Assembly: GCA_016194865.1 (NCBI GenBank)
Contig: JACQAT010000001.1
Coordinates: 81,657 to 145,656, forward strand
Source of the DNA: Chloroflexota bacterium
GTDB taxonomy: Bacteria > Chloroflexota > Limnocylindria > P2-11E
Direction of reading: 5' to 3'
Length of the DNA: 64,000 bases
Of this stretch, positions 2,997 to 56,256 are shown one piece after another (positions within the stretch are counted from its first letter, which is position 1; each line of letters opens with the position of its first letter). The notes under the pieces were generated by a model. The model made no database searches and was not told the origin of the DNA. It worked only from the letters and a program-made list of their open reading frames with translations. The position numbers and the translations under genes were made by a program.

Positions 2997-3031
2997 GGCG
3001 AGGCAGCCTAGCCCTTCCGCATACTGCCCGC

Positions 3032-3913
3032 ATGCGAGTCGGCGCGGTCCTCCCGCAGCTCGAGATCGGTGCGCACCCGAACGGCATCACGCGTTATGCG
3101 ACGACCGTCGAGCGGCTTGGCTACCAGCACATCGTCGCGTACGACCACGTGCTCGGCGCCCATCCCGACCGCGCGGGCGGCTGGAGGGGCCCGTACACGC
3201 ATGTCTCGCTGTTCCATGAGCCCTTCGTGCTGTTCGGCTATGTGGCCGCCATCGCGCCACAGCTCGAGCTCGTGCCCAGCGTGATCGTGCTTCCGCAGCG
3301 CCAGACGGCGCTCGTCGCGAAGCAGGCCGCCGAGGTCGACGTGCTGTCCCAGGGAAAGCTTCGTTTCGGCATCGGCATCGGCTGGAACTTCGTGGAGTTC
3401 GAGGCGCTCGGCCAGAAGTTCACCGACCGCGGCAAGCGCATGGAAGAGCAGATCGCCGTCCTGCGCCGTCTCTGGACCGAAGAGGTCGTCGACTTCACCG
3501 GTCGCTGGCACCGCATCGATCGCGCGGGCATCAATCCCCTGCCGGTGCAGCGGCCGATCCCGATCTGGATGGGCGGCACCGCGGAGCCCGCCGTGCGGCG
3601 GATCGCGGCGCTCGGCGACGGTTGGCTGACGCAGGCGCAGCCGAACGACGAGGGGCGCGCGGCATTCGCGCAGTTCCGCGGCTTTGTCGGAGAGGCCGGC
3701 CGCGATCCCGAGCGCATCGGCATCGAAGGGCGGATCAATGCCAGGCGCGGCACGCCCACCGAGTGGATCGAGGGCGCGCGCATCTTCGCCGACATGGGCT
3801 GCACGCACATCGAGCTGAACACGATGGGCGCGGGCTACGCGACGATCGACGCGCACCTCGATGCGCTCGCTCGGTTCCGCGAGGGACTTCGCGGCGCCGG
3901 CCTCGATCGCTAG
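3032..3913 (+). CDS. LLM-class F420-dependent oxidoreductase (luciferase-like monooxygenase family)
   Basis: Blocks MRVGAVLPQL, LGYQHIVAYDHV, LRFGIGIGWNFVEFEALG and IPIWMGGTAE typical of the luciferase-like TIM-barrel F420 enzymes. The start is shortened from the track ORF to ATG 3032. Confidence 0.7.
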   Translation: MRVGAVLPQLEIGAHPNGITRYATTVERLGYQHIVAYDHVLGAHPDRAGGWRGPYTHVSLFHEPFVLFGYVAAIAPQLELVPSVIVLPQRQTALVAKQAAEVDVLSQGKLRFGIGIGWNFVEFEALGQKFTDRGKRMEEQIAVLRRLWTEEVVDFTGRWHRIDRAGINPLPVQRPIPIWMGGTAEPAVRRIAALGDGWLTQAQPNDEGRAAFAQFRGFVGEAGRDPERIGIEGRINARRGTPTEWIEGARIFADMGCTHIELNTMGAGYATIDAHLDALARFREGLRGAGLDR

Positions 3914-6054: not shown

Positions 6055-6084
6055 CTGCCGCAAGTACCCATAATCACATGCCGC

Positions 6085-6897
6085 ATGGAGGCCGCCACCG
6101 TTCGCGCCTTCATCGCCTCGCTCGAGGACCGTCCAGCGGATCGAAAACGGATGGACGCGCTGCTCCAGAGCGTGCAACGACCCGACGTCCGGTATCTCGT
6201 GGGGCGCCTGCTGGGCGGCGGGAGCGAGCCCGTCGCGAGGGTCGCGCGCGCCATCCTCGAGGCGGCCGGGGCGCCGACCGGCGTCCTCGCGCCGGCTGGG
6301 CCGCTGATCAGTGGTGCTGCACTCGACGATGCATTACTCGCGTCGGCAGGCACGTTCGTCGCCGGCGCCGCCTATCAGCTCGCCGGCGAGCGGGCGGACC
6401 TCGGCGAGCTGACGCGCCGCGAGGCGGAGGTCGCGCTCGCCCTCGTCGCGTTCGCGCAGTCGAGCCGGCGCGCCGTGCTGCTCCTCGACGAGGGGATCTC
6501 CGCGGAAGATCCGCTGCACGCGCCGGAGGCCGACCTGGTCGTGATCGGTCGGGTCGATCGCGCTGGGGCCGAGCGCGCGCTCGCGCTCGTGCCCGACGGC
6601 CGTCCAGCCGTCGCGGCACCACAGTCGGCCGAGGTCCGTGACGCTTTGGAACAGGCCGCGAAGGAGCGCGGGATCCCACTGCTGCTTGGTGACCGGGACT
6701 TTTCATTCACGGAGACGAGCGAGACCGGCGCGGGCATCGAGGTCCGTGTCGGCGATACGCGCTATGACCTCATGCGGCCACGAGGTCTCTCGCCCGCGGA
6801 GCTGGCGACCGGCGTGGCGACGGCCCTCGCGCTCGGGGTGCTCGGCATCCGCATGCGCGAGGAGTGGGTGATCGCCGGATGCGGGAGTATCAGCTGA
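6085..6897 (+). CDS. hypothetical Ala-rich protein
   Basis: 270-aa ORF with very GC3-rich, coding-like codon usage; no confident family assignment. Its 5' end overlaps the divergent gene if ATG 6085 is used, so the true start may be internal. Confidence 0.35.
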   Translation: MEAATVRAFIASLEDRPADRKRMDALLQSVQRPDVRYLVGRLLGGGSEPVARVARAILEAAGAPTGVLAPAGPLISGAALDDALLASAGTFVAGAAYQLAGERADLGELTRREAEVALALVAFAQSSRRAVLLLDEGISAEDPLHAPEADLVVIGRVDRAGAERALALVPDGRPAVAAPQSAEVRDALEQAAKERGIPLLLGDRDFSFTETSETGAGIEVRVGDTRYDLMRPRGLSPAELATGVATALALGVLGIRMREEWVIAGCGSIS

Positions 6898-21548: not shown

Positions 21549-22487
21549 CTAGCCGATCAGCTCCAGCAGCTTCGGCTTCACCTCGCGCATGAGACGTTCG
21601 ATCGTCTCGTGGTCGTAGGGCGCGGAGATACCGAAGATGAAGCCGCGGGCGCCCGCGCGCCAGCGCTCGAGGAGGTGCTTCGCGACGCCATCGGGCGTCC
21701 CGCTGATGGTGACGTTCGGCGTCGCGGACTGGCGGTGGTGCGTGCGGAGCTCGTTGAGGCGGGCGTCGATCGCGCTCTGCGTGTCGCGGACGAGCGCGCT
21801 GCCACCCGTCGTCGGCAGGATGGCGGCGTAGTCGCGCTTCACGGTCTCGCAGTGGCGCTTGAGCACTTCGAGCTTGTGGGCGATCACGTCGGCCGTCCCG
21901 AAGCCGTGCCAGATGTCGGCGAAGCTCGCTGTGATCTTGAGCGTCACCTGCTCGCCGCCGCCGCCGATCATGATCGGCAGGCGCTTCTGGATCGGCTTCG
22001 GCTCGCAGGTGGCGTCGGTGATCGTGTAGTGCGTGCCGGCGAAGGTCGTTCTCGGCTGGTCGAGCAGCGAGCGGATGATCGGCACGGCCTCGCGCAGCTT
22101 CTGGAGGCGGATCGGCGCGGTGTCGAACGGGATGCCGTACATCTTGTGCTCGGCCTCGTGCCACGCGGCCCCGATGCCGAGGATGGCCCGGCCCTCGGTG
22201 ATGTGATCGAAGGTGGCCGCCATGTTCGCGAGCACCGCCGGATGCCGGTAGGTGTTCCCGGTCACGAGCATGCCGAGCTTCACGCGAGTCGTCGACGCGC
22301 CAAGGGCCGGAAGGATCTGCCAGCCCTCGAAGTTCGGACCCGTCGCGTCGCCGATCAGCGGAACGAAGTGGTCCCACGTGGTGAGCCAGTCGTAGCCGAG
22401 CTCATCGATGAGGCGAGCTGTTCCGCGGATCTCCGGCCAGGTCGTGTACTGCGGGTGCAGCTGGATGCCGAATCCGACGTTCATCAC
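21549..22487 (-). CDS. LLM-class F420-dependent oxidoreductase
   Basis: 312 aa; strongly similar in block structure to the 23946..24896 paralogue (TWDHFVPL, ILGIGAAWHEAEHKMYGIPF, IMIGGGGEQ). Confidence 0.75.
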   Translation of the reverse strand: MMNVGFGIQLHPQYTTWPEIRGTARLIDELGYDWLTTWDHFVPLIGDATGPNFEGWQILPALGASTTRVKLGMLVTGNTYRHPAVLANMAATFDHITEGRAILGIGAAWHEAEHKMYGIPFDTAPIRLQKLREAVPIIRSLLDQPRTTFAGTHYTITDATCEPKPIQKRLPIMIGGGGEQVTLKITASFADIWHGFGTADVIAHKLEVLKRHCETVKRDYAAILPTTGGSALVRDTQSAIDARLNELRTHHRQSATPNVTISGTPDGVAKHLLERWRAGARGFIFGISAPYDHETIERLMREVKPKLLELIG

Positions 22488-22605
22488 GATGAAGCGTAGA
22501 TGGTCACAGCACCGCCCGGCGGTGCCGTGACCATCCTGCTACGCCTGCGGCTACGTAGTAGGTCGCACGGGGCCGACCTCGCTCGCGGGGTATCCTTCAT
22601 CGCTC

Positions 22606-24948: not shown

Positions 24949-25962
24949 TCAGGCGGTGAGGGTCGGCTGGAGATCGCGGACGTGCGGGATGATGTCGCGC
25001 CCGTAGCGCTCGAGGATCTGCTCCTCGTCGCCGCTCATCAGGTAGATGTTGAACTGCGTCACGCCGGCCTTCGCGAGCGTGCGCAGCTTCTCGATGTGCT
25101 CGTCCACCTCGCCGATGACGCAGAAGCGGTCGACCGACTCGTCGTCCACGAACGCGGCATTCGCTGAGCCCGACTCCGCGTGGTGCTTGTAGTCGTAGCC
25201 GGGCCGCCCACGGACGTACGCCGTCAGGTCGGCCGGCAGCCCCTGCTCGCCGTAGCGCTTCACGAGGTCCACGACGTGGTTGCTCACGAGGGCGGGGAAC
25301 CAGCGCACGCGCTCGCGCACGTCCGCGCGCTTCCCCACATGCGCCGGGGCGGCCGCCATGACGCGCAGCGCACCAGGATCGCGGCCCGCGGCGCGCGCGC
25401 CCTCGCGGAGCAGTCCGACGCACCACGCGACGAGGCCAGGGTCGGCGAGCTGGATGATCGCGCCGTCGGCGACGCGGCCGGTGAGGGCGAGGGCCCTCGG
25501 TCCGTAGCCCGCGATCCACATCGGCAGCGCGTGGGGCTCGACCCAGTCGAGATGGAGCTTGGTGCCTTCGTACTCGATCGGCCGGCCCTCGCACAGCTCC
25601 CTGATGACAAGCGCGGCCTGCTCGAGGTCGACGAGCGTCATCGGGCGCTTGCCGAGCACGCGGCGCGCCGAGTCACCGCGCCCGATCCCCAGGTCCATGC
25701 GGCCCTTCGAGAGGATCTGCAGCACGGCGAGGGCGCTCGCGGTGACGCTGGGCTCGCGCGTGGCCGGGTTGGTGACGCAGGTGCCGAGGCGCATGCGCTC
25801 GGTGTTCTGCGCCATGAGCGTGAGCAGCGTGTACGGCTCCTTCCACAACACGTGGCTGTCGAAAAGCCAGCCGTACGTGAAGCCACTCCGCTCCGCGAGC
25901 TTCGTCAGGCTGACGATGCGCTCGAGCGAGTGGTCGGGCTTGAGGGTGAAGCCGAATTCCAT
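24949..25962 (-). CDS. LLM-class F420-dependent oxidoreductase
   Basis: ATG 25962 (MEFGFTLKPDHS...); the track ORF upstream of this is an Arg/Ser-rich artefact. Luciferase-like blocks are present (GFTYGWLFDSHVLW, RMDLGIGRGD). Confidence 0.7.
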   Translation of the reverse strand: MEFGFTLKPDHSLERIVSLTKLAERSGFTYGWLFDSHVLWKEPYTLLTLMAQNTERMRLGTCVTNPATREPSVTASALAVLQILSKGRMDLGIGRGDSARRVLGKRPMTLVDLEQAALVIRELCEGRPIEYEGTKLHLDWVEPHALPMWIAGYGPRALALTGRVADGAIIQLADPGLVAWCVGLLREGARAAGRDPGALRVMAAAPAHVGKRADVRERVRWFPALVSNHVVDLVKRYGEQGLPADLTAYVRGRPGYDYKHHAESGSANAAFVDDESVDRFCVIGEVDEHIEKLRTLAKAGVTQFNIYLMSGDEEQILERYGRDIIPHVRDLQPTLTA

Positions 25963-25987
25963 GAGGACGGGAGTGTACGGAGCGGCG

Positions 25988-26521
25988 CTAGCCGCTCGCG
26001 TCCCAGCGCGTTCGCCGCTCGACGGCCACGCGCACGATCGGGCGGCCGGCGAGGGAGCCGTCCTGGTACTGCGGATATTTGACCGCCAGCAGCTCGGCCG
26101 CGCGATCGCGCTCGTCCCCCGACTCGAGGATCGTCGCGATCCCGTCGAGGCGCACCCACGCGAGGCGCGTCCAGTCCTCGTCCCAGCGGTCGACGAGGAC
26201 GCTCGCGCGCCCGTTCGTCTCGATGTTGCGGACGCGCTGGAGCGCGTGCCAGTCATCGTCACGCTTCGGCTTCCGGTCCAAGGGCGTATAGAGCACGTCG
26301 CTCCCGCTCATCACGTACACGATGGGGACGACGTGCGGGCGCGCGTATTGGTCGGACGTCGCGAGGTGCGCGACGCGAGCGCCGTCTAGGAGCTCGTCCG
26401 CAGCCGAGGAATGACCTCCGTCGAGAACTGGCGCAGCGAGCGCTCCTGGTCGCGTCCCGGGAAGTGGAAGACCAGATGCCCGAAGCCGAGGTCCAGGTAC
26501 GGCCGCAGCTGCGCGACGCAC
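25988..26521 (-). CDS. PPOX-class F420-dependent (pyridoxamine 5'-phosphate oxidase family) enzyme; start uncertain
   Basis: The core ELLDGARVAHLATSDQYARPHVVPIVYV...LAWVRLDG matches the F420-binding PNPOx-like split barrel. The track M1 overlaps the fgd 3' end by 135 nt, so the true start is probably further in. Confidence 0.55.
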   Translation of the reverse strand: MRRAAAAVPGPRLRASGLPLPGTRPGALAAPVLDGGHSSAADELLDGARVAHLATSDQYARPHVVPIVYVMSGSDVLYTPLDRKPKRDDDWHALQRVRNIETNGRASVLVDRWDEDWTRLAWVRLDGIATILESGDERDRAAELLAVKYPQYQDGSLAGRPIVRVAVERRTRWDASG

Positions 26522-27393
26522 TCCGCGGGATCGTTCGTGACGATGAAGCGCGTGTGCGCCTTGTCGGCGCCGGCGACCGAGCGGCGCTCCATCTCACGCG
26601 GGTCCTCGACGCCGGCCTTGTCCTCCGCGGGCAGCGCCAGCGCCGCCCACTCCCGCGTGTCGGCGAGCGCGCGGTCGCGATCCGCGTCGAACGAGACCTT
26701 GATCTCGATCATCAGCTCGAGCGCGGCCGGATCCTTCTTCGCCTTGGCCGCGCCCTTGCGGAAATTCGGCAGCAGCGTCTCGGTGTAGAGCGCCATCCCC
26801 TTGCCGCTCGTCACGATGAGCCCGTCGCCGTCCTGCCCCGCGTACTCGGCCGCCTTCGGGCCCGACGCGGCGAAGAGGATCGGCAGCGCGCCGTCCGGCT
26901 TGTCGAAGATCTTCGCGGCGCGCGTCTTGTAGAAGGTGCCCTCGAACGTGACGTAGTTCTCTGTCCAGAGACGGCGGATGAGCGTGACCGCCTCGCGCAG
27001 ACGCGCCAGCCGCTCGCCCGGCGCCGGCCACTCGCCGGCGGTGACGGGCGTCTCGTTCATCGACTCGCCGCTGCCCACGCCGAGGAACACGCGCCCCGGG
27101 AAGAGCGACCCGAGCGTCGCGAAGGCCTGCGCGACGACCGCGGGGTGATAGCGGAACGTCGGCGTCACCACGCTGGTCCCGATGCGGACGCGCTTCGTGG
27201 CCTGGCCGAGCGCGCCGAGCCATGCGAACGAGAACGGCGCGTGCCCGTCGGTGTCCTTCCAGGGGTGGAAGTGGTCGCTCACCACGACGCTGTCGAACCC
27301 GAGCTCCTCGGCGAGGAGCCCGTAGCGCAGCAGCTCGCGTGGCGCGAACTGCTCCGCGGATGCCTTGTAGCCGAGCGTCAGCACTCCGTTCAT
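26386..27393 (-). CDS. fgd: F420-dependent glucose-6-phosphate dehydrogenase
   Basis: 335 aa; matches to mycobacterial Fgd1 (recalled from memory, not aligned) include LGYKASAEQFAPRELL, VSDHFHPW, GHAPFS, LGTSVVTPTFRYHPAVVAQAFATLG, VFLGVGSGE and HLVFHFPG. Confidence 0.8.
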   Translation of the reverse strand: MNGVLTLGYKASAEQFAPRELLRYGLLAEELGFDSVVVSDHFHPWKDTDGHAPFSFAWLGALGQATKRVRIGTSVVTPTFRYHPAVVAQAFATLGSLFPGRVFLGVGSGESMNETPVTAGEWPAPGERLARLREAVTLIRRLWTENYVTFEGTFYKTRAAKIFDKPDGALPILFAASGPKAAEYAGQDGDGLIVTSGKGMALYTETLLPNFRKGAAKAKKDPAALELMIEIKVSFDADRDRALADTREWAALALPAEDKAGVEDPREMERRSVAGADKAHTRFIVTNDPAECVAQLRPYLDLGFGHLVFHFPGRDQERSLRQFSTEVIPRLRTSS

Positions 27394-27408
27394 CCTACTG
27401 TCCTACGC

Positions 27409-30505: not shown

Positions 30506-31735
30506 TGAGATTCCCGGTGGTTTGTGAGACTGCCTCAGGCCGCGGCACGCAGCTCCTCCAGCCAACCCTGCAGGTGTGCGAGCGCTGGGATGTTGTCGAA
30601 GCCGCGATCGGTGAAGGGCGTGCCGTCGTAACGCTCACCCGGGGTGAGCCAGCCGATCTCGCCGTGCAGCCGGTGGTAGTTGTAGTAGCCGGCGAAGCGC
30701 TCGAGGGCGGCCTCTGCATCCCCCAGCGAGCGGAAGATCTCGCGGTCGAGGACCTCGTCCTTGAGCGTCGCCCAGAACGCCTCGATCTTGCCGTTGGTCC
30801 AGGGCGAGTTCACCTGGGTCCTGATGTGACGGATCGCAAGCTCGCGCAGCGTCTTGCCGAACTGAGTCAGCACACCGGGCATCCAGAAGACAAAGGGACT
30901 GCCGTTGTCACTCATGAGATCGAGCGGCCGGCCGCAGAGCTCGAAGCAGTCGCGGATCCACTCAAGGATCGGGACCGCCGCCTGGCTCGTCTGGATGCGC
31001 AGGCCCAGCACGTAGCGCGAGTGATCGTCGACCAGGCCGAAGATCCAGGTCTTGAGGTAGCGGTCCCGCGCGAGTTGGATGAAGAAGGGACCTTTGATGT
31101 CGATGTGCCAGAGCGAGTTCGGGCTCTCGCGCTCGTAGCGGGGGCCGCGCGGGCGCGGCCCGGATGGCCGTGCCGTGCCGAGGTCGTCAAAGAGCCGCTC
31201 GATCCACCACTGGCCGACGCTCGCGATCTCGCGTCGACGCAGCTCGGCCGAGATGCGCTTGGCGTTCCAGTATGTGGCCAGGCGCACCGCGATCACGACC
31301 TGCTCCAGCCACGCGGGATGTTTGATCTGCGGAGCGCGTGGCCCGCGCCGCCCCGGTACCAGCGCCGCAAGACCGCCGCGCTCGTACGCGCCCTGCCAGC
31401 GGAACAGGCTCGCCCGGCTGCAGCGGCCCAGGGCGAGCGCCGCAACCAGGCCCTCCTCGCGCATGACGCGCAGCAGCCCCGACCGCGCGCGGACCAGGGC
31501 GAGCTCGCTGCGTCGCTGCGTCTGAGCGGGCGGTCGACCACCACGCGTGGCCAGGAAGCGGAACCCCGGACCCTCCTGGTACGTGTGCCGCAGCCAGCGC
31601 CGCTGCGGATCGCCGCGATGGCCGTGGTGCGCGAAGATCTCGTCGGGCATGGCACTCCCTCCTCGCTCCGGCGCGAGGATACGAATGGGCTCGGCCACGT
31701 CCGAGTCGCAGTCTCACAAACCACCGGGAATCTCA
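30506..31735 (-). mobile_element. IS481-family insertion sequence, 1230 bp, perfect 28-bp terminal inverted repeats, 6-bp target duplication TCTACG
   Basis: IRL TGAGATTCCCGGTGGTTTGTGAGACTGC (30506..30533) is exactly the reverse complement of IRR (31708..31735). Direct repeats TCTACG lie at 30500..30505 and 31736..31741. The element encodes a single HTH+rve transposase. Confidence 0.85.
30535..31698 (-). CDS. IS481-family transposase (HTH + integrase-core rve DDE domain)
   Basis: 387 aa; HIDIKGPF...D-x-SRY...MSDNGSPF...Y-N-Y-HRLHGEIG pattern of the DDE integrase core. Confidence 0.85.
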   Translation of the reverse strand: MAEPIRILAPERGGSAMPDEIFAHHGHRGDPQRRWLRHTYQEGPGFRFLATRGGRPPAQTQRRSELALVRARSGLLRVMREEGLVAALALGRCSRASLFRWQGAYERGGLAALVPGRRGPRAPQIKHPAWLEQVVIAVRLATYWNAKRISAELRRREIASVGQWWIERLFDDLGTARPSGPRPRGPRYERESPNSLWHIDIKGPFFIQLARDRYLKTWIFGLVDDHSRYVLGLRIQTSQAAVPILEWIRDCFELCGRPLDLMSDNGSPFVFWMPGVLTQFGKTLRELAIRHIRTQVNSPWTNGKIEAFWATLKDEVLDREIFRSLGDAEAALERFAGYYNYHRLHGEIGWLTPGERYDGTPFTDRGFDNIPALAHLQGWLEELRAAA

Positions 31736-44131: not shown

Positions 44132-46045
44132 TCACTCGATCGCCCGGCGCACGTCCCAGGCCGTTCGTTCGAGTCGCGCGATCGCGTCCTCCTCGCTCAC
44201 TCCCGTTTCGGCGCGCACGATCCCGATCGCGCGCGCCCTGAGCTTCGCGTTGGAGGCACGCACGTCGACCATGAGGTCGCCACGCGTGTGCCCGAGCCGC
44301 ACCATCGCCGCGGTCGACAGCATGTTCAGCACCAGCTTCGTCGCGGTGCCCGCCTTCAGCCTGCTGGACCCCGCGACGATCTCGGCGCCGACCTCGAGGA
44401 CGATCGCGACGTCGGCCGCGCGCGCGAGCGCCGAGCTGCCGACGCAGGTGACGGCGACCGTGCCCGCGCCCCTGTTTCTCGCGCGCGCGATCGCGCCGAC
44501 GACGAAGCGCGCTCCGCCGCTCGCGGAGATCCCGACGACGACATCGCTCGGCGACGCCGCCGCGAGCGCCTCGCCGCCCGACCCCTCGTCGTCCTCCGCG
44601 CCCTCGACCGCGTCGCGCAGCGCGAGATCGCCACCGGCGATGACGGCCTGGAACAGCTCCCTCCCCGCGCCGAAGGTCGGCGGGATCTCGCTGGCGTCGA
44701 GCGCGCCGAGGCGGCCGCTCGTGCCCGCGCCGACGTAGATCACATGGCCGTTCATCTGGATCGACCGCACGATGCGCTCGACCGCGCGCTCGATGGCGGG
44801 AAGCGCGCGTGCCACGGCGAGCGGCACGGTCGTGTCCTCCCTGTTCATGAGCTCGAGGATCTGTCGCGTGCTCATGTCGCCGAGCCCCTTCGCGCGCGGG
44901 TTGCGTCCCTCGGTGGTCACCCGCCGATGATGCGCTTCACGAAGATGCGCTTCAGGGGATGTGGATGGCCCCGCCGCTCGTCGCATGGTGGGCACCGGTG
45001 CAGCGGGGGAGGTGTTCGGCAGCCCGCGCCAGCGATACGCGCCGAGGATGGCGAACGACACCGCCTCGCGCGCGCTCGCAGGGATCCCGAGCTCGTCCAA
45101 CGGACGGACGATGAGCGGCGCGACGTCCGCGCGCAGCGCGTCGACGAGCGCCGGATTGGCGCTGCCGCCACCGGCGATCGCGAGCTCGCGCCAGCGTGTC
45201 CCTGCGGGCGTCTCCCGCGCCAGCGCCTGCGCGATCGTGCGCGCGCTCAACGCCGTCGCCGTCGCGATCGCGTCGTCGAGCCCCGGGCACTCGCGCAGCA
45301 GGCGCAGCGCGAGCTCGTGACCGAAGTCCTGGCGTCCGGTGCTCTTCGGCGCGCGCTTCGCGAAGAACGGGTGGGCCAGCGCGCGCGCGAGCGCCGTCTC
45401 GTCCGTCCTTCCGGCGCGCGCGCGCGTCCCATCGCGGTCGAACGGCTCGCCGACCGTCGCGCACAGGGCGTCGATCACGATGTTCGCGGGGCCCGTGTCG
45501 AACGCGACCACGTCGTCCGCTCGATCGCTCGGGATCAGCGTGAGGTTCGCGATGCCTCCGAGGTTCAGCAGCGCTATCGGCGCTCGCTCCCGGAACAGCA
45601 GGTGGTCCGCGAACGGCACGAGCGGCGCACCCTGGCCACCCGCGCTCACGTCGGCGCTGCGGAAGTCCGAGATGGCCGGCACGCCGCAGCGCCGCGCGAC
45701 ACGGGACGCGTCCCCGAGCTGGAGCGTCGCGCCGCGGTCGGGAAGGTGCGCGATCGTCTGGCCATGCAGCGCGATGAACGCCGGACGCGCGGGCAGCAGA
45801 CGGACGATCTCCTCGGCGGCGTCCGCGTAGGCGTCCCCGAGATCGGCGTGCAGCGTGGCCACGTCCGACGCGGTCAGCGCCTCGCCGGAGGCGGCTGCCA
45901 GCGCGCGCGCGCGGAGCGCGGCCGCGTAGGGCGTGTGTCGCGTTCGCACGATCGTGACCGCCGGTCGCTCGCCGTCTCCGATCTCGATCGCCGCGGCATC
46001 GATGCCGTCGAGCGAGGTGCCTGACATCAATCCGACCGCGATCAC
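44132..46045 (-). CDS. anmK-murQ: apparent in-frame fusion of anhydro-N-acetylmuramic acid kinase (AnmK) and N-acetylmuramic acid 6-phosphate etherase (MurQ)
   Basis: Residues 1 to about 350 are AnmK-like (MIAVGLMSGTSLDGIDAA...GGGSANPAL). Residues about 376 to 637 are MurQ-like SIS (VTTEGRNPRAKGLGDMSTRQILELMNREDTTV...VGAGTSGRLG...). No stop codon separates them. A GTG at 44920 could alternatively start a separate murQ. Confidence 0.7.
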   Translation of the reverse strand: MIAVGLMSGTSLDGIDAAAIEIGDGERPAVTIVRTRHTPYAAALRARALAAASGEALTASDVATLHADLGDAYADAAEEIVRLLPARPAFIALHGQTIAHLPDRGATLQLGDASRVARRCGVPAISDFRSADVSAGGQGAPLVPFADHLLFRERAPIALLNLGGIANLTLIPSDRADDVVAFDTGPANIVIDALCATVGEPFDRDGTRARAGRTDETALARALAHPFFAKRAPKSTGRQDFGHELALRLLRECPGLDDAIATATALSARTIAQALARETPAGTRWRELAIAGGGSANPALVDALRADVAPLIVRPLDELGIPASAREAVSFAILGAYRWRGLPNTSPAAPVPTMRRAAGPSTSPEAHLREAHHRRVTTEGRNPRAKGLGDMSTRQILELMNREDTTVPLAVARALPAIERAVERIVRSIQMNGHVIYVGAGTSGRLGALDASEIPPTFGAGRELFQAVIAGGDLALRDAVEGAEDDEGSGGEALAAASPSDVVVGISASGGARFVVGAIARARNRGAGTVAVTCVGSSALARAADVAIVLEVGAEIVAGSSRLKAGTATKLVLNMLSTAAMVRLGHTRGDLMVDVRASNAKLRARAIGIVRAETGVSEEDAIARLERTAWDVRRAIE

Positions 46046-47073
46046 GACGGCTCGCTCACTGCTTCATGCACGGCGATCCGGAAGCGGTACATGTCAGGGT
46101 CGTTGTCGCGGCCGAAGTACACGCGGTTCGTGAGCAGCGCCACGGTCAGGCCGAGCGCGGGGTCGATCCACAGCGATGTCCCGGTGAACCCGAGATGCCC
46201 GAACGCGGACTCGCCGAACCAGCGCCCGACCATGGGGCCGACCGGCGCGCGGAGCGCCAGGCCGAGGCCGCGCCGCGCGTTCTCGCCACGCGCGTGCTCC
46301 TTCCTCGCTTCCTGCGCGAGCTCGTTCCCGATGACCGCGCCGTCGCGGAACACGCGCGCGAGCGCGAGGACGTCGGCGGCCGTGCCGAAGAGGCCCGCGT
46401 GCCCGGCGATGCCGCCCATCGCGTGCGCGTTCTCGTCATGCACCTCGCCGCGCAGCCGCTTGTGGCGCCAGGCCGTGTCCTCCTCGGTGGCCACGCACCG
46501 CAGCGTCTCCTTCGGCAGGAAGTCGCACTCGGCCTCGATCGGTTCGAGCACGCGCTCGCGCACGAGATCGTGGAAGGGCGCGTCGCCCACGTTCGCGAGG
46601 CCCTGCGTCAGCATGACGTAGCCCAGATCGCTGTAGACGAAGGTGCCGGGCTCGCGCGCGAGCGGCTCCTGCGCCGCGAGCCAGATCGCCTCCTCCGAAG
46701 AGGTCGCTTCTTTCCACAGCGGCTTCCACCAGTTGAGGCCCGCCGTGTGTGTGAGCACCTGCGCCAGGGTCACTGTGTCCTTCGCGCCCCCACGGAAGTC
46801 CGGCACCAGCTCGCGCAGGGGTTGATCGAGCTCGAGCACGCGATCCCTGACGAACGAGAGCACGAGCGTGGTGGTCGCGAGCTTCGTCAACGAGGCCAGA
46901 TCGAAGAGCGAGCGAGCGGTGCATTCGGCGTCCGGACCGCCGTTCGGGTCCGGGCACAGCGTCCCGGCGGCGATCAGCTCGCGCGTCCCGCCGCGCTCCG
47001 TCGCGAGCACGCACGCGGTGAAGAGCTTCCCGAGGTGCTCATCGATGACCGCGCGCGCGGTCGCGAGGCTCAT
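46042..47073 (-). CDS. serine hydrolase, beta-lactamase/esterase family
   Basis: SxxK active-site motif FDLASLTKL, YSD and HTGFTG-like blocks (HLGFTGTSLW). Confidence 0.7.
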   Translation of the reverse strand: MSLATARAVIDEHLGKLFTACVLATERGGTRELIAAGTLCPDPNGGPDAECTARSLFDLASLTKLATTTLVLSFVRDRVLELDQPLRELVPDFRGGAKDTVTLAQVLTHTAGLNWWKPLWKEATSSEEAIWLAAQEPLAREPGTFVYSDLGYVMLTQGLANVGDAPFHDLVRERVLEPIEAECDFLPKETLRCVATEEDTAWRHKRLRGEVHDENAHAMGGIAGHAGLFGTAADVLALARVFRDGAVIGNELAQEARKEHARGENARRGLGLALRAPVGPMVGRWFGESAFGHLGFTGTSLWIDPALGLTVALLTNRVYFGRDNDPDMYRFRIAVHEAVSEPS

Positions 47074-49282: not shown

Positions 49283-49323
49283 ATGGTCCGAACGATAGGA
49301 CCACTTGGAAGACGTTCCGCTCG

Positions 49324-49794
49324 TCAGTCCTCCGGGAGATCCGCCCAGAACGCCTCGGTGATCCGGTTGTTCATGTTGGCCACGCCCACGTTCACGACCA
49401 GCTCCACGAGCTGGCGCTCATTCAGGAAGCCCTTCGCCTTCGCGAATGTCTCCTCCGACACGTGCACGTCGCGCGTGAGCTCGGTCGAGAGCGCGATGAC
49501 CGCCCTCTCCTCGTCGCTGAAGAGCGGGCTCGACGCGACGGACCCATCCTTCATCGCCTCGATCATCTCGTTCGTGATGCCCAGCGCACGGCCGGACGCG
49601 GTGTGGGACTTGATTCAGTAGCGACAGCCGTTCTGCAGATCCGTCGCAAGGAACGAGAGGAGCCGCAGCTTCGCGGACAGCGCGCCGCCGTCCAGCGCGT
49701 CCCGCAGCTTCCAGTACGCCGCCGAGACCTCCGGCGAATGGTTGAGCAAGCGCCGGAACGCGCTGCCCTCGCCGGTGTACGGGATGCGCGCCAT
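49324..49794 (-). CDS. carboxymuconolactone decarboxylase/AhpD-family protein with in-frame TGA at the second Cys of the CxxCxxxH motif (selenocysteine candidate or pseudogene)
   Basis: The two track ORFs 49615..50115 and 49324..49566 are contiguous in one frame across TGA 49617..49615. The reconstructed motif is NGCRY-[TGA]-IKSHTASGRALG, i.e. C-x-x-U/C-x-x-x-H. ATG 49794 (MARIPYTGEG...) overlaps the upstream stop (TGATG). Confidence 0.5.
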
Positions 49795-50177
49795 CAGCCG
49801 CGGGTCCGGAAGCGCGAGATCGCGAGCTCGCCGAGCGTTCGCCTGGAGCTCGCCGTCGACTTCTCCAGGATGACCCGGCGGATCTGGTCCGCATCGGGCA
49901 CGATCGGCGCGATGCGCCTGACGCTGCGCGGGCCGGCGATACGGCCCTCGAGCGCGTCGACGATGTCCTTCACGCGCTCGTCGATCTCGTGGATGGCGAG
50001 CGGGCGATCGCCGAGGCGCAGCGCGATGCGGATCTCGAGGCGATCCGTCTCGCGATAGCCGACGCCGCGCCGGGTCTGCGCCTCGAGGACGGCGGCGTGC
50101 ACCCGCCGCCGCCATTCGTTGCGCGGCCGCGCATAGGGAGGGATCGGGACGACGATCGAGAAGCGGCGTTTGGCCAT
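49794..50177 (-). CDS. RusA-like (Holliday-junction resolvase family) small protein, tentative
   Basis: 127 aa; pattern VVPIPPYARPRN...HEIDERVKDIVDAL...IVPDADQIRRVILEK resembles the RusA PxPPSxN ... DxDNxxKxxxDAL ... DDxQ blocks. Family assignment from memory, low certainty. Confidence 0.35.
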   Translation of the reverse strand: MAKRRFSIVVPIPPYARPRNEWRRRVHAAVLEAQTRRGVGYRETDRLEIRIALRLGDRPLAIHEIDERVKDIVDALEGRIAGPRSVRRIAPIVPDADQIRRVILEKSTASSRRTLGELAISRFRTRG

Positions 50178-50180
50178 GTC

Positions 50181-51758
50181 TTAGCGGACCACCTGTATCT
50201 CGATCGTGTCATATCCGGTCGCGCCGCTGGGGAACGGCTCTCGGCGGACCGCCGTCTGCGTGAGACCCGCGCCGTCCGTGGCGCGCACGAGCAGCTTCTT
50301 CGGTCCGACGCCGTCGGGCGTCCAGCGATAGAGCCAGCGCCGCCAGGTCAGCGCGCCGAGGGCGGTCTCGAGCTCCGCGACGACCCACGGCTGGCCACCA
50401 TCGACGGAGACCTCGACCTTCGAGATGCCACGCGCGCCGGCGAACGCAATACCCGCGACGGCCACCTGACCGCCGTCCCATCGCACCGTGCGGACCGGCG
50501 CGTCGAAGCGGGAGCCGACGTTCACGATCGCGGCGTCGTTCCAGCCGCGCTCCTGCCAGTAGCCGAAGTAGTCGAATGTCGCGACCTCGACCGTCTTGAG
50601 CCACTTCACGTTCTTCATCCCGTAGATATTCGGCACCAGCAGGCGCGCGGGGAAGCCGTGATCGATCGGCAGCGTCACGCCGTTCATCAGGTAGGCGACG
50701 ATCGTCTTGGCCTCGAGCGCCTTCGCGATCGGGATCGAGTCGGAGTAATCGTCGACCGAGCGCAGGATGACATCGAACGCGCCGTTCTTCGGCTTGGCGC
50801 GCGCGAGCAGGTCACGCAGTGGGACGCCGGTCCACAGCGCCGTCGAGATGAGATCGCCGCCCACCTCGTTGCTGATGCACTCGAGCGTGTGGAGCTGCTC
50901 GACGCTCGGGAGCTCGAGCAGCTCGTCGTAGGTCAGCTCGAACGGCTGCTCGACGTTGCCCCTGATCGCGAGGGTCCACCTCGCCGTATCGACCTGCGGC
51001 TTGAACAGCGTCGTGTCGACCGTGTAGTGATCGGCGTTCGCGGTGATCCGCGGCGTGAGCCGCTCGATCTTCTCGAACTGCGGGTCCGGCGGGGGCACCG
51101 TCTCGCGGAACACGAGGTTGCGCGCCGTGGCGACGACGTTCTCGCCAGCGGCTCGAGCGATGCGCAGGCTCGGGCCCAGCTTGAGACCGCCGAAGGCGAC
51201 GAGCGCCGCCACGCCGAAGGTCGCGTAGAGCGCGCGCCGCCGCGAGGGCGCCGGGACCGGAACGCGGTACTGCCCGGCCGATCGCAGGAGCGCGAGGCTC
51301 GCGGCGAACACGGCGAGACCCGCGCCCGCGTCGACGAGGAGCGCGCCGAGCTCGAGGTGGGCGGCCGCGAAGAGCTGCGCGAGCACCACGGTGAGGAGCC
51401 AGGGCGCGACGGCGAGCGAGACGACGACGCGGTCGCGTCTTCCCGGATCGAGCGCCGCGATGCCCGCGATCGTTCCGCTCGCGAGGTAGAGCGCGACGAC
51501 ACCGATCACGAGCAGGCGTTGCGCCCAATGCTGGAAGAGCTCGATGAGCGGGATCGAGATCCATCCGGGGAGCACCTCGATGATCGCCTGGCCGAGGCTG
51601 AGCGGCGCGAACGGGACGCCGGCGAGGCTCACGATGAACGCGACATCGAGCGCGAAGAACATCGCGAGAGCGCCCACCAGGATGCCGGTGCGTGCCCGCG
51701 TATCCAAGCCCTTCACCTGTGGCACGATACGCCCGCGTGCCCGAGCTCCCTCCACCAC
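50181..51758 (-). CDS. membrane-anchored molybdopterin-dependent oxidoreductase (sulfite-oxidase/MsrP-like Mo domain + dimerisation domain)
   Basis: N-terminal polytopic membrane region. C-terminal TYDELLELPSVEQLHTLECISNEVGG...LMNGVTLPIDHGFPARLLVPNIYGMKNVKWL is the Moco-binding sulfite oxidase family signature. Confidence 0.65.
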   Translation of the reverse strand: MVEGARARGRIVPQVKGLDTRARTGILVGALAMFFALDVAFIVSLAGVPFAPLSLGQAIIEVLPGWISIPLIELFQHWAQRLLVIGVVALYLASGTIAGIAALDPGRRDRVVVSLAVAPWLLTVVLAQLFAAAHLELGALLVDAGAGLAVFAASLALLRSAGQYRVPVPAPSRRRALYATFGVAALVAFGGLKLGPSLRIARAAGENVVATARNLVFRETVPPPDPQFEKIERLTPRITANADHYTVDTTLFKPQVDTARWTLAIRGNVEQPFELTYDELLELPSVEQLHTLECISNEVGGDLISTALWTGVPLRDLLARAKPKNGAFDVILRSVDDYSDSIPIAKALEAKTIVAYLMNGVTLPIDHGFPARLLVPNIYGMKNVKWLKTVEVATFDYFGYWQERGWNDAAIVNVGSRFDAPVRTVRWDGGQVAVAGIAFAGARGISKVEVSVDGGQPWVVAELETALGALTWRRWLYRWTPDGVGPKKLLVRATDGAGLTQTAVRREPFPSGATGYDTIEIQVVR

Positions 51759-51973: not shown

Positions 51974-52203
51974 CCACGCCTAGCGATCACGGGACGTTCC
52001 CGCAGTGGGCCCGCAACACGCTGCGGCCGCGCGCCTGGTCGCGACGCTGGCTCGCGATCTCGCTCCGCAACTACTGGATCCGCATCGCGCGCCGGCAGCT
52101 CTGTTGCGGGCATCCTGGCGAGCCGGGCTGCTGAAAGCCCGTCACGGCGGACGGTCGTCCGCATTCGCACGGCGCGCATCCCGATTAGGATTCGTGGCGT
52201 CCG

Positions 52204-52704
52204 ATGAAGGAATTCCTCCAGGGCCGACGCTTCGGCTTCTCGCTCCGACCCGCTTTCGGCATGCTCGCCGCGGGCCTGGGCATCGCGACGACGCTCCTCG
52301 ATCTGATGGCCTGGCTGCAATGGGGAAGCCGTGACACGAACGGCTTCGTCATCGCTGCGTACGGCACGATCATCGCGACGACGGTCGTCGCCGCGCTCGC
52401 CGCGCTCGCGGCCCTCTTCGAATGGCTCGATGTACCGGAGGAGGAGCGCCCGCTCGCGCGGCTCGATCTCATCGCCGCGGCCGTGGCGGTCGTGCTCTAC
52501 CTCGTCGCGACGGTCCTTCGCGCCGGCGACCTCGGCGGGGCCGGCGTGACCCCGATCGAGCTGCTCCTCGCGATCGCCGGGCTCATCGTTCTTCTTGTCG
52601 ACGGCGTGATCAGCGCGAGCCTCTACGCCACGCGCGAGTGGGAGATCATCGAGGAGGACCTGCCCAGCGTGCGCCACCGGCGCAGGCGGACCGCCCGCAG
52701 CTAG
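52204..52704 (+). CDS. hypothetical integral membrane protein
   Basis: 166 aa with 4 hydrophobic helices; the stop overlaps the ABC exporter stop region. Confidence 0.4.
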   Translation: MKEFLQGRRFGFSLRPAFGMLAAGLGIATTLLDLMAWLQWGSRDTNGFVIAAYGTIIATTVVAALAALAALFEWLDVPEEERPLARLDLIAAAVAVVLYLVATVLRAGDLGGAGVTPIELLLAIAGLIVLLVDGVISASLYATREWEIIEEDLPSVRHRRRRTARS

Positions 52705-54707: not shown

Positions 54708-55520
54708 TCAGATCGCGGCTCCGGTCAGGAAGAAGACGACGCGAGCGCTGATCTCGCCGGCGAGGACCATGCCCAGCCCGACGTAGAGCAGCCCGGTCGA
54801 CGATTGCGTGTTCATGCGCGCGGTCCACCACGCGCCGAGGGCGACGCCGAGCGTCGCGAGGAGCCCGACGCCGACGCGGATCGCGACGGCCACGAACAGC
54901 GCGGTCTCCGTGATGTTCGTGAGCTCTCCGCGCGCGATCGAGATCGCGACGAGGACGCTCTGGAGCACGACCGCGACGACGACGACCAGCGCGGCGCGCT
55001 CGAGCGGCGCGGTCGATAGCTTCGGCGTCACCAGGTACCAGTGGCCGAGGAGCATCGCGGCGTCCGAGCCGCCGAGCGCGAGGGCCCCCAGCGGCAACGC
55101 GAGCAGCGCGAAGACGTCGTACGGGGATTGGCTGGGGCGCGCGCTCGCGGCGAGCGCGAGGCTGGTCACGCCCACGATCACGACCGCGGCGCCTGTCACG
55201 GCGCGGAAGCGCTTCCACGGGGTGAACACGGCGACGAGCTGCACGATCACGAGGACCGTGACGACGACGAGCAGCTGCCCGAACGCGGAGACCTTGCCGA
55301 TGTCGATGCCGATGCGGACCGCGGTCGCGCCCTGCGGGAGCGCGCCGTTCAGCGCGAGGGCGAAGGCGATGACCGCCGCGTCGACGAAGGCCGCGAGCTT
55401 CAGGAAGCCGCCGGGCGCCTCGTCGGTCCGATCGATGAACCAGATGAGGAACGCGCCTCCGACGGCGAGCTCCAGCAGCACGACGGCCAGGACGAGCGGC
55501 AGGCTGACGAGGGCGTCCAT
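54708..55520 (-). CDS. hypothetical polytopic membrane protein
   Basis: ATG 55520 (MDALVSLPLVLAVVLLELAV...) with about 8 TM helices; the N-terminal part of the track ORF is discarded. Confidence 0.45.
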   Translation of the reverse strand: MDALVSLPLVLAVVLLELAVGGAFLIWFIDRTDEAPGGFLKLAAFVDAAVIAFALALNGALPQGATAVRIGIDIGKVSAFGQLLVVVTVLVIVQLVAVFTPWKRFRAVTGAAVVIVGVTSLALAASARPSQSPYDVFALLALPLGALALGGSDAAMLLGHWYLVTPKLSTAPLERAALVVVVAVVLQSVLVAISIARGELTNITETALFVAVAIRVGVGLLATLGVALGAWWTARMNTQSSTGLLYVGLGMVLAGEISARVVFFLTGAAI

Positions 55521-55566
55521 CAGGGGAAACGCGCCGATCCCACGCTCATGAGCGTAGCGTTCGTCC

Positions 55567-56256
55567 ATGCCGAGCGCCGACCACGACACGCGCATCGCCG
55601 CGATGTTCGATCGCATCTCACCGCGATACGACCGGCTCAATCGCGTGCTCTCGTTCGGCGCGGACATCGCGTGGCGCGGGCGCGCGATCGCGTTGCTCGG
55701 CGCGAGACCGGGCGACGTGGTGCTCGACCTCGGCGCCGGGACCGGCGACCTCTCCCGCGCGGTCGCCGCGCGGGGCGCGCGGGTGCTGGCGATCGATCTG
55801 TCGCCGCGAATGCTCGGCATCCTCGCCAGGAAGGGCGCTCGCGAGATCCACGCGATCGTCGCGACCGGCCGCGCGCTTCCGCTGGCGGACGCGTCCGTCG
55901 ATCGCGTGGTCAGCGGGTTCACCGTGCGCAATGTCGGGGAGCTCGCACCGGTATTCGGCGAGCTGCGCCGCGTCCTTCGTCCCGGCGGTCGCGTCGTGCT
56001 GCTCGAGCTGTCGCACCCGCCGAGCCCGCTGTTCGCCTCGCTCTACTCCTTCTATTTCGACAGGCTGGCCCCGCTCCTGGCGACGTTGCTCGGTGGGGAT
56101 GCCGAGGCGTACCGGTACCTCCCGCGCTCCCTGCGCGCATTCCCGGGGCCGGAGGATCTCGCCGGCACGCTCGGCGCGGCCGGCTTCACGCACGTGCGTT
56201 TCGAGCGACTAACCTTCGGCATCGCGGCGATCCACATGGGGGAGCGAAGAGCGTGA
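55567..56256 (+). CDS. class I SAM-dependent methyltransferase (UbiE/MenG demethylmenaquinone methyltransferase-like)
   Basis: FDRISPRYDRLNRVLSFG...VLDLGAGTGDL motifs I and post-I. Confidence 0.75.
   Translation: MPSADHDTRIAAMFDRISPRYDRLNRVLSFGADIAWRGRAIALLGARPGDVVLDLGAGTGDLSRAVAARGARVLAIDLSPRMLGILARKGAREIHAIVATGRALPLADASVDRVVSGFTVRNVGELAPVFGELRRVLRPGGRVVLLELSHPPSPLFASLYSFYFDRLAPLLATLLGGDAEAYRYLPRSLRAFPGPEDLAGTLGAAGFTHVRFERLTFGIAAIHMGERRA

What the first reader, a model, noticed from the sequence alone, without database searches (positions are those of the whole stretch)
49324..49794. AhpD/carboxymuconolactone-decarboxylase family gene with in-frame TGA exactly at the second Cys of CxxCxxxH: candidate selenoprotein
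Two adjacent track ORFs are one continuous frame interrupted only by TGA at 49617..49615. Translating through gives NGCRY-X-IKSHTASGRALG, i.e. the family's redox motif C-x-x-C-x-x-x-H with X at the resolving-Cys position. Sec-containing AhpD-like proteins (CxxU) are an established selenoprotein family. A GC-rich imperfect hairpin (CCCA..CGCG-loop-UGCG..UGGG) begins about 10 nt 3' of the UGA, where a bacterial SECIS would sit. The alternatives are a recent nonsense mutation or a TGC to TGA sequencing error.
Basis: partly seen in the sequence, partly recalled or inferred. Interest (0 to 1): 0.6.

Follow-up and report, generated by a model that had tools for sequence, protein, structure and literature searches.

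The report
AhpD-like selenoprotein gene with SECIS hairpin
The apparent stop codon inside this small redox-enzyme gene is very probably read as selenocysteine; this is a real but ordinary example of a well-known bacterial selenoprotein family that gene callers split in two.

Summary
On the minus strand, 49794..49324 is one 156-codon frame of the AhpD/carboxymuconolactone-decarboxylase family (Pfam PF02627). Its only interruption is TGA at 49617..49615, at the second Cys of C57-R-Y-U60-I-K-S-H64. All 46 orthologues recovered from three Chloroflexota genome assemblies and 43 metagenome contigs (52-75% amino-acid identity) carry TGA at that column and none carries Cys. More distant full-length homologues and solved structures have Cys there. 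Both halves show the same coding-type substitution pattern. A 7-bp hairpin with loop CGUGC (49597..49579) starts 24 nt after the UGA and meets every published bacterial SECIS criterion. Its core codons show no synonymous variation: rare Arg codon CGT is used 40/40 there against about 8% elsewhere. Synonymous sites in the lower stem covary with their pairing partners. TGA is also the commonest ordinary stop in the window, so there is no general recoding. selA, selB, selD and tRNA-Sec are absent from the 64 kb, and the rest of the genome could not be searched. AhpD-like CxxU selenoproteins have been known since 2005, so this is a new member of a known kind and mainly an annotation correction.

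The parts
49324..49794 (-). Complete coding sequence of the AhpD/CMD-family selenoprotein: 156 codons plus the terminal TGA at 49326..49324. Gene callers split it into a 59-aa and a roughly 76-80-aa piece.
   Evidence: Searches give the frame. One search gives Pfam PF02627 at E=8e-11. One search shows PDB 2gmy and 2o4d aligning over residues 19-154. One search shows the Logan gene calls of 59 aa and 76 aa.
49615..49617 (-). In-frame UGA, codon 60, the proposed selenocysteine codon.
   Evidence: TGA sits at this column in 46/46 orthologues and in 40/40 unique coding sequences. It aligns with Cys in distant homologues.
49603..49626 (-). Redox motif C57-R-Y59-U60-I-K-S-H64 (CxxUxxxH).
   Evidence: C57, Y59, U60 and H64 are invariant in 40/40 sequences. 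They correspond to Cys48, Tyr50, Cys51 and His55 of PA0269 (PMC3141380).
49579..49597 (-). Bacterial SECIS-like hairpin with a 7-bp stem (G21-C39 to C27-G33) and apical loop CGUGC at 49590..49586. The invariant block GGCCGUGCGCU lies at 49593..49583.
   Evidence: It is the centroid fold at -11.1 kcal/mol. The same hairpin appears in the minimum-energy fold of 27/33 unique orthologue sequences. Codons 68-70 show no synonymous variation. CGT is used 40/40 here against 7.8% elsewhere. Pairing is 81% with compensatory changes.
49794..50177 (-). Conserved 127-aa protein of unknown family. Its stop codon overlaps the selenoprotein ATG by one base (TGATG), so the two are probably co-translated.
   Evidence: Searches show the overlap. 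It lies directly upstream of the orthologue in 17 loci at 71-83% identity. Pfam, NCBIfam and PDB give no match.
50181..51758 (-). Sulfite-oxidase-family molybdoenzyme, 525 aa. The catalytic domains begin near residue 250; the N-terminal stretch looks hydrophobic and membrane-like by eye but was not tested. It is the first gene of the conserved three-gene cluster.
   Evidence: Pfam Oxidored_molyb (E=2.5e-46) plus Mo-co_dimer. SorA and SoxC models score below their cut-offs. It is found upstream in 15 loci.

Best explanation
This is one gene for a small cytoplasmic thiol/selenol oxidoreductase of the AhpD-like (CMD, COG2128-type) family. Codon 60, UGA, is very probably decoded as selenocysteine. 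The mRNA hairpin 24 nt downstream (loop CGUGC) would act as a bacterial SECIS. It would recruit SelB bound to Sec-tRNA(Sec) to the ribosome paused at UGA, so that Sec is inserted instead of termination. In the protein, Sec60 takes the place of the exposed, attacking cysteine of the CxxCxxxH active site (Cys133 of M. tuberculosis AhpD, Cys51 of PA0269). Cys57 would then resolve the selenenylsulfide. The likely substrate is a peroxide, a sulfenic acid or a disulfide on a partner protein. Shown here: the frame, the conservation of UGA, the Cys/Sec alignment, and RNA-level selection on the hairpin. Inferred: SelB dependence, the catalytic roles of the residues, and the substrate.
For: 1. TGA is conserved in 46/46 orthologues at 52-75% identity, from three Chloroflexota genome assemblies and 43 metagenome contigs.
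2. Each of the 40 unique coding sequences has exactly one in-frame stop. Substitutions follow the coding pattern pos3 > pos1 > pos2 on both sides of it: 0.43/0.29/0.17 upstream and 0.39/0.27/0.21 downstream.
3. Predicted proteins in the databases above about 45% identity are only 78-112-aa C-terminal fragments, as expected if gene callers stop at the TGA.
4. Distant full-length homologues (P0020, P0031, P0037, P0040) and PDB 2gmy, 2ijc and 2o4d have Cys at the column of U60 within CxxCxxxH.
5. The hairpin meets the published bSECIS constraints (PMC13188914): 5-nt loop, 7-bp stem, G at loop position 2 followed by U, 24 nt between UGA and loop, and -11.1 kcal/mol.
6. Codons Gly68-Arg69-Ala70 are GGC 40/40, CGT 40/40 and GCG 36/36. 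CGT makes up only 7.8% of the other Arg codons in these genes and 6.8% in sampled window genes. The only changes inside the block fall at unpaired loop position 32.
7. The synonymous third base of Leu71 tracks its pairing partner. It is CUG in 12/12 sequences where codon 67 is UCC, and CUC in 11/11 where codon 67 ends in G. Overall 81% of cells pair, two pairs show double changes, and 0/500 shuffles reach the observed score.
8. TGA is the normal stop of 23/44 window genes.
Against: No selA, selB or selD was found among 46 coding-type ORFs scanned with Pfam. A few stretches without such ORFs were not scanned. No tRNA at all was found in the 64 kb or in the 52 related loci. The rest of the genome could not be searched, so the Sec machinery is unverified for this organism. 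The hairpin is no more stable than synonymous-codon shuffles of the same peptide (mean -10.7 against -10.3 kcal/mol), as expected at 70% GC. RNAalifold keeps only the three invariant apical pairs, because the lower stem uses two registers. No Rfam family matches. No other selenoprotein gene was seen in the window or the related loci.
Confidence: 0.9

Rival explanations
1. The gene is a pseudogene created by a recent nonsense mutation (TGC/TGT to TGA).
For: A single-base change from TGC or TGT would give TGA. The genome's Sec machinery has not been seen.
Against: TGA is present in 46/46 orthologues down to 52% identity. Both halves are under purifying selection in the same frame. No other in-frame stop or frameshift occurs in any of the 40 unique coding sequences.
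Confidence: 0.01
2. The TGA is a sequencing or assembly error for TGC.
For: None beyond prior possibility.
Against: A Logan assembly of SRR12113409 is identical over 3,050 nt, although it may derive from the same reads as the window. Forty-six contigs from separate samples have TGA at the same column.
Confidence: 0.01
3. The UGA is conserved and read through, but not as SelB-delivered selenocysteine. It could be near-cognate Cys or Trp insertion. Alternatively it could be a programmed stop that yields a 59-aa peptide and a separately initiated C-terminal protein.
For: The Sec machinery is unverified in this lineage. An internal ATG at 49566 gives an 80-aa ORF. The hairpin is not thermodynamically exceptional.
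Against: The 16 codons between the UGA and the internal ATG are conserved as protein (SH..GRALGIT). The active-site His64 lies in that stretch, so the two halves would not make a functional CMD fold separately (the PDB alignment spans residues 19-154). The hairpin has the bSECIS signature: a G-U in a small apical loop at the right spacing, held in place by a rare codon. The phylum Chloroflexota includes selenoprotein-rich genomes (PMC13326102).
Confidence: 0.06

Closest known systems
AhpD-like selenoproteins (CxxU) of Zhang, Gladyshev and co-workers: 'AhpD-like 1' (COG2128) and 'AhpD-like 2 / CMD-like' (PF02627). In the 2026 review they are listed under TIGR01926 and PF02627.
   Same: Same superfamily domain (PF02627 and TIGR00778 above their cut-offs). 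Same CxxU motif with Sec at the second Cys position. Same type of SECIS immediately downstream. Cys-containing homologues are widespread (PMC1088965, PMC2398784, PMC13188914).
   Different: It scores below the TIGR01926 cut-off (46.8 against 81.8 bits). It is about 20 residues shorter at the N-terminus than the full-length Cys homologues. Every member recovered in this clade has Sec; no Cys orthologue above about 45% identity was found. It comes from soil and freshwater Chloroflexota-like genomes, whereas the first descriptions were from marine metagenomes.
PA0269 of Pseudomonas aeruginosa (PDB 2o4d/2ijc) and Atu0492 (2gmy): AhpD-like proteins with weak peroxidase activity.
   Same: The alignment covers residues 18-154 (E=8.5e-10 to 2e-8). 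Cys48, Tyr50, Cys51 and His55 of PA0269 correspond to C57, Y59, U60 and H64 here (PMC3141380).
   Different: Sec replaces Cys51. The proton-relay Glu36 is replaced by a hydrophobic residue (Leu here; M/I/L/V in 40/40 Sec-clade sequences), while all seven full-length homologues aligned keep Glu.
NF053654 'YciW-related (seleno)protein' and NF041047 'GSU3128 family (seleno)protein' (NCBIfam).
   Same: These are AhpD-superfamily models that NCBI uses to name selenoproteins. NF053654 is the best NCBIfam hit by E-value.
   Different: The scores are 47.1 bits against a cut-off of 310, and 16.9 against 110, so this protein belongs to neither family.
E. coli fdhF SECIS and the bSECIS consensus.
   Same: A hairpin inside the coding sequence just after UGA, a small apical loop with G-U, and in many orthologues a bulged U below the apical pairs. 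The fdhF details are from general knowledge.
   Different: The G-U of the loop lies at +29/+30 from the U of UGA, against +23/+24 in fdhF. The sequence is unrelated. The lower stem alternates between two registers among orthologues.

Membership tests
AhpD/CMD superfamily (Pfam PF02627; TIGR00778 ahpD_dom) | Profile score above the curated cut-off | tested here: met
   PF02627 scores 42.2 bits against 23. TIGR00778 scores 34.5 against 27.8.
AhpD-like peroxidase-related proteins (PA0269 type) | CxxCxxxH active-site motif on the conserved helix pair | tested here: met
   C57, U60 and H64 are invariant in 40/40 sequences and align to Cys48, Cys51 and His55 of PA0269.
AhpD-like peroxidase-related proteins (PA0269 type) | Proton-relay acidic or basic residue (Glu36 of PA0269, Glu118 of MtbAhpD) | tested here: not met
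   The aligned position 45 is Leu here and M/I/L/V in 40/40 Sec-clade sequences. It is Glu in all seven full-length homologues aligned.
TIGR01926 'peroxidase-related enzyme' (model cited for AhpD-like selenoproteins) | Score above the cut-off of 81.8 bits | tested here: not met
   46.8 bits.
NF053654 YciW-related (seleno)protein | Score above the cut-off of 310 bits | tested here: not met
   47.1 bits.
True AhpD (TIGR00777; partner of AhpC) | Score above 191.95 bits and linkage to ahpC | tested here: not met
   18 bits. The neighbours are a molybdoenzyme, an unknown 127-aa protein and a GntR regulator, with no AhpC or peroxiredoxin.
Bacterial selenoprotein | In-frame UGA conserved among orthologues, with coding constraint on both sides | tested here: met
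   46/46 orthologues have TGA. The codon-position substitution pattern is the same on both sides.
Bacterial selenoprotein | Cys in homologues at the column of the UGA | tested here: met
   P0020, P0031, P0037, P0040 and PDB 2gmy, 2ijc and 2o4d have Cys there.
Bacterial selenoprotein | bSECIS consensus: 3-9 nt loop, 4-16 bp stem, G in the first two loop positions, 16-37 nt from UGA, MFE <= -7.5 kcal/mol | tested here: met
   Loop CGUGC, 7 bp, 24 nt spacing, -11.1 kcal/mol. Criteria are from PMC13188914. RNA-level conservation and covariation are shown.
Bacterial selenoprotein | selA, selB, selD and tRNA-Sec (selC) in the same genome | not testable with these tools
   They are absent from the 64-kb window and from 52 related loci (tRNA only).
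Bacterial selenoprotein | Selenium actually incorporated at the UGA | not testable with these tools
   This needs 75Se labelling or mass spectrometry.

The most novel reading that the evidence does not exclude
This may be a distinct, obligately Sec-containing clade of compact AhpD-like proteins in Limnocylindria-like Chloroflexota. The clade has lost the proton-relay Glu, which would be dispensable because a selenol is already ionised. In the window's sub-clade the gene forms a conserved, translationally coupled module with an unknown 127-aa protein and a sulfite-oxidase-family molybdoenzyme. In other sub-clades it follows a haem peroxidase gene. The selenoprotein would then be a dedicated redox partner or protector of these oxidant-handling enzymes, not a general AhpC reductase.
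Probability: 0.2. Interest if true: 0.4.

Novelty: new member of a known kind. Interest (0 to 1): 0.25.

Why it matters
The main value is correct annotation. Gene callers split this gene into two fragments (59 aa and about 76 aa in the Logan calls). Protein databases hold only C-terminal stubs of the whole clade. Recognising the UGA as Sec restores a complete redox enzyme. It also implies selenium use in a soil and freshwater Chloroflexota lineage for which I found no paper mentioning selenocysteine. In addition it supplies a well-conserved SECIS alignment of 33 unique sequences that could seed a covariance model. It does not change what is known about selenoproteins.

Tried and rejected
- Rfam at a permissive E-value over 49300-49850 gave only chance hits (asX3, snoU82P) and no SECIS family.
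It shows no covariation and is no better than shuffles.
- The bulged-U register, taken as a single consensus, reaches only 65% pairing. Orthologues split between two registers, and RNAalifold therefore keeps only three pairs.
- Hairpin stability against synonymous-codon shuffles was not significant. The argument therefore rests on conservation and covariation, not on energy.
- The search for Sec machinery found no tRNA in the window or in 52 loci. It found no SelA, SelB or SelD domain among 46 coding-type window ORFs.
- A scan for other TGA-interrupted coding frames found none in the window and nothing convincing in the related loci.
- An exact-sequence look-up of the GntR neighbour found nothing.
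- Hits P0011 and P0012 in the representative search looked like giant multi-repeat relatives. P0011 is a eukaryotic protein with BRCA2-type BRC repeats (FSTASGKPV...) that matches 'SHTASGRALGI' by chance. P0012 was not inspected.
- Structure prediction was not run.

Full report
**Observation.** Reading the minus strand from 49950 to 49200 and translating 49794..49324 gives one frame of 156 codons:

MARIPYTGEGSAFRRLLNHSPEVSAAYWKLRDALDGGALSAKLRLLSFLATDLQNGCRY*IKSHTASGRALGITNEMIEAMKDGSVASSPLFSDEERAVIALSTELTRDVHVSEETFAKAKGFLNERQLVELVVNVGVANMNNRITEAFWADLPED*

The single internal stop is TGA at 49617..49615. With Cys placed at the stop, the protein matches Pfam CMD PF02627 (42.2 bits, cut-off 23) and TIGR00778 'AhpD core domain' (34.5 bits, cut-off 27.8). 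A scan of all six frames for TGA codons flanked on both sides by at least 40 codons of coding-type composition (GC3 above 0.82) found only this site in the 64 kb. TGA is also the ordinary terminator of 23 of 44 confident window genes. UGA is therefore not generally reassigned in this organism.

**Comparative test of the TGA.**
- A scan of one genome per species found three relatives, all Chloroflexota assemblies and one named Candidatus Limnocylindria. They are 66% identical over the full length, and each has an in-frame stop at the same place. The DNA alignment shows it is TGA in all of them.
- A metagenome scan with a profile of these sequences returned 49 loci. Together with the three genomes, 46 are orthologues (52-75% identity).
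- All 46 have TGA at the column of the second Cys, and none has TGC or TGT. Two distant paralogues (33-36% identity) lack the motif altogether.
- Each of the 40 unique coding sequences has exactly one in-frame stop.
- Pairwise differences follow the coding pattern on both sides of the stop. For codon positions 1/2/3 they are 0.29/0.17/0.43 upstream and 0.27/0.21/0.39 downstream.
- Database proteins above about 45% identity to the C-terminal half are only 78-112 residues long. This is the signature of gene callers stopping at the TGA.
- A Logan assembly of run SRR12113409 is identical to the window over 3,050 nt and carries the same TGA. Its gene calls are 59 and 76 residues.

These results exclude a recent nonsense mutation and a base-calling error.

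**Cys/Sec pair.**
- Full-length homologues at 32-37% identity include several with Cys at the aligned column inside CxxCxxxH: P0020 NECEYCAHHH, P0037 NQCEYCISYH, P0040 NRCHYCVVHH and P0031 NECGRCWTSH.
- The nearest solved structures are Atu0492 (2gmy, E=8.5e-10) and PA0269 (2ijc/2o4d, about 2e-8). They align over residues 18-154 and have NGCxYC..H.
- Through that alignment, C57, Y59, U60 and H64 correspond to Cys48, Tyr50, Cys51 and His55 of PA0269. These are four of the five proton-relay residues described for that protein (PMC3141380).
- The fifth residue, Glu36, aligns with position 45. That position is Leu here and M/I/L/V in all 40 Sec-clade sequences. All seven full-length homologues in the alignment keep Glu.
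- I infer, without a test, that a general base is dispensable once the nucleophile is a selenol of low pKa.

**Role of the Sec position.** In M. tuberculosis AhpD it is Cys133, the second Cys, that forms the disulfide with Cys61 of AhpC, while Cys130 is partly buried (PMC6626918). B. thailandensis AhpD is reported to differ, so this assignment is by analogy only.

**The RNA element.** Positions are numbered from the U of UGA as 1.
- The centroid fold of the 71 nt after the stop is a single hairpin. Its pairs are G21-C39, U22-G38, C23-G37, C24-G36, G25-U35, G26-C34 and C27-G33. The loop is C28-G29-U30-G31-C32 and the energy is -11.1 kcal/mol. In window coordinates it spans 49597..49579.
- The same hairpin, with the loop at the same codons, is in the minimum-energy fold of 27 of 33 unique orthologue sequences.
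- It meets all four constraints of the published bacterial SECIS model (PMC13188914). These are a 3-9 nt loop, a 4-16 bp stem, G in the first two loop positions (usually followed by G or U), 16-37 nt from UGA (24 here), and MFE of -7.5 kcal/mol or lower.

**Stability is not evidence here.** Synonymous-codon shuffles of the same peptides fold about as well (-10.3 against -10.7 kcal/mol on average).

**Conservation and covariation are the evidence.**
- Codons Gly68-Arg69-Ala70, which form the apical pairs and loop, are GGC in 40/40, CGT in 40/40 and GCG in 36/36 sequences. Other invariant Gly, Arg and Ala codons in the gene use three to five codons each.
- CGT supplies the loop U30. It makes up only 7.8% of the remaining Arg codons in these genes and 6.8% in sampled window genes.
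- The only substitutions inside the invariant block GGCCGUGCGCU fall at unpaired loop position 32.
- In the lower stem, the synonymous third base of Leu71 follows its pairing partner. It is CUG in 12/12 sequences where codon 67 is UCC. It is CUC in 11/11 where codon 67 ends in G.
- On the alignment as a whole, 81% of cells pair and two pairs carry double changes (C-G/G-C 13:9 and G-C/C-G 15:7). No shuffle out of 500 reaches the observed score, and slid registers score far lower.
- Sequences with GCC at codon 67 mostly use a second register with U35 bulged. This is why RNAalifold reports only the three invariant pairs.
- Rfam has no matching family.

**Selenocysteine machinery.** ARAGORN found no tRNA in the window or in any of the 52 related loci. 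Pfam scans of 46 coding-type ORFs of the window found no SelA, SelB or SelD domain. A few stretches without such ORFs (for example 31.7-34.4 kb) were not scanned. This covers 64 kb of a genome of unknown size, so it does not count against Sec. At phylum level, Chloroflexota include some of the most selenoprotein-rich bacterial genomes (BSepDB, PMC13326102). No paper in the library mentions both Limnocylindria and selenocysteine.

**Context.**
- The selenoprotein ATG shares one base with the stop of a 127-residue ORF (49794..50177). That ORF matches nothing in Pfam, NCBIfam or PDB.
- Upstream of it lies a 525-residue sulfite-oxidase-family molybdoenzyme (50181..51758). It has Oxidored_molyb plus Mo-co_dimer domains beginning near residue 250. 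SorA and SoxC models score below their cut-offs.
- The 127-aa gene lies directly upstream of the orthologue in 17 loci. In 15 of them the molybdoenzyme gene precedes it.
- More distant orthologues sit elsewhere. In L030 and L032 the gene directly follows a 696-residue animal-haem-peroxidase-family gene. In L034 it lies beside a glutaredoxin-like protein.
- Downstream in the window are a GntR/UTRA regulator and cell-wall recycling genes: GH3, a beta-lactamase-like protein and an AnmK-SIS fusion.
- The recurrent neighbours are enzymes that handle oxidants. This fits a protective or partner redox role but does not identify a substrate.

**Comparison with what is known.**
- AhpD-like proteins with a CxxU motif were described as a new selenoprotein family in the Sargasso Sea data in 2005 (27 sequences; PMC1088965).
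- They are among the most abundant families in the GOS data: AhpD-like 1 (COG2128) with 299 Sec and 902 Cys forms, and AhpD-like 2 (pfam02627) with 70 Sec forms (PMC2398784).
- They are catalogued in a 2026 review and database (PMC13188914, PMC13326102).
- NCBIfam holds several (seleno)protein models in this superfamily. This protein scores below the cut-off of each: NF053654 47 against 310, TIGR01926 46.8 against 81.8, and NF041047 16.9 against 110.
- It is therefore a separate clade of a known kind. It is shorter at the N-terminus, it lacks the relay Glu, and every member recovered has Sec.

**Verdict.** Confidence that this is a genuine Sec-decoded gene is about 0.9. The residual doubt is the unverified machinery. 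Novelty: a new member of a known kind. Interest is low to moderate (0.25). It is a sound annotation correction and a clean SECIS example, not a surprise.

Noticed in passing
window 49794-50177 (-): A 127-aa ORF matches no Pfam, NCBIfam or PDB entry. It is more conserved (71-83% identity in 17 loci) than the selenoprotein it overlaps by one base. Its function is unknown. By eye it contains a 'DERVKDIVDAL' stretch reminiscent of RusA-type motifs; this was not tested.
   Followed up: partly
window 50181-51758 (-) and 52189-52704 (+): A sulfite-oxidase-family molybdoenzyme has its catalytic domains starting near residue 250 and scores below the SorA, SoxC and MsrP cut-offs. A weak DUF2231-like membrane protein is transcribed divergently from it. 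Both recur next to the selenoprotein cluster in related loci.
   Followed up: partly
L030 1842-3929, L032 1803-3899: In a more distant sub-clade the Sec-AhpD gene directly follows a 696-aa animal-haem-peroxidase-family gene (Pfam An_peroxidase, E=2.5e-98), an uncommon family in bacteria. In L034 the upstream neighbour is a glutaredoxin-like DUF836 protein.
   Followed up: partly
window 2975-3913, 21549-22538, 24949-26307, 26386-27402: There are four luciferase-like monooxygenase genes (PF00296) within 25 kb, alongside peptide ABC-transporter genes, aminotransferases and amidohydrolases.
   Followed up: no
window 30535-31713 (-), surrounding about 29-34.4 kb: An integrase-core (rve) transposase gene lies in a stretch where few ORFs pass the GC3 coding filter. 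It is probably an insertion element.
   Followed up: no
window 44132-46063 (-): A single ORF combines an anhydro-MurNAc kinase (AnmK) domain with SIS domains of the MurQ/GKRP type. It lies next to GH3 (NagZ-like) and beta-lactamase-like genes and forms a cell-wall recycling cluster under a GntR/UTRA regulator.
   Followed up: no
window 3913-6333 (-) and 54711-56042 (-): Two long ORFs of 807 aa and 444 aa have strong coding composition but no Pfam match. The 444-aa ORF also has no NCBIfam match.
   Followed up: no
P0011, P0012 (representative-library hits): Two giant proteins matched the query in 7 and 14 stretches. P0011 is a eukaryotic protein with BRCA2-type BRC repeats (FSTASGKPV...), so its match is a chance similarity to 'SHTASGRALGI' and not homology. 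P0012 was not inspected.
   Followed up: yes
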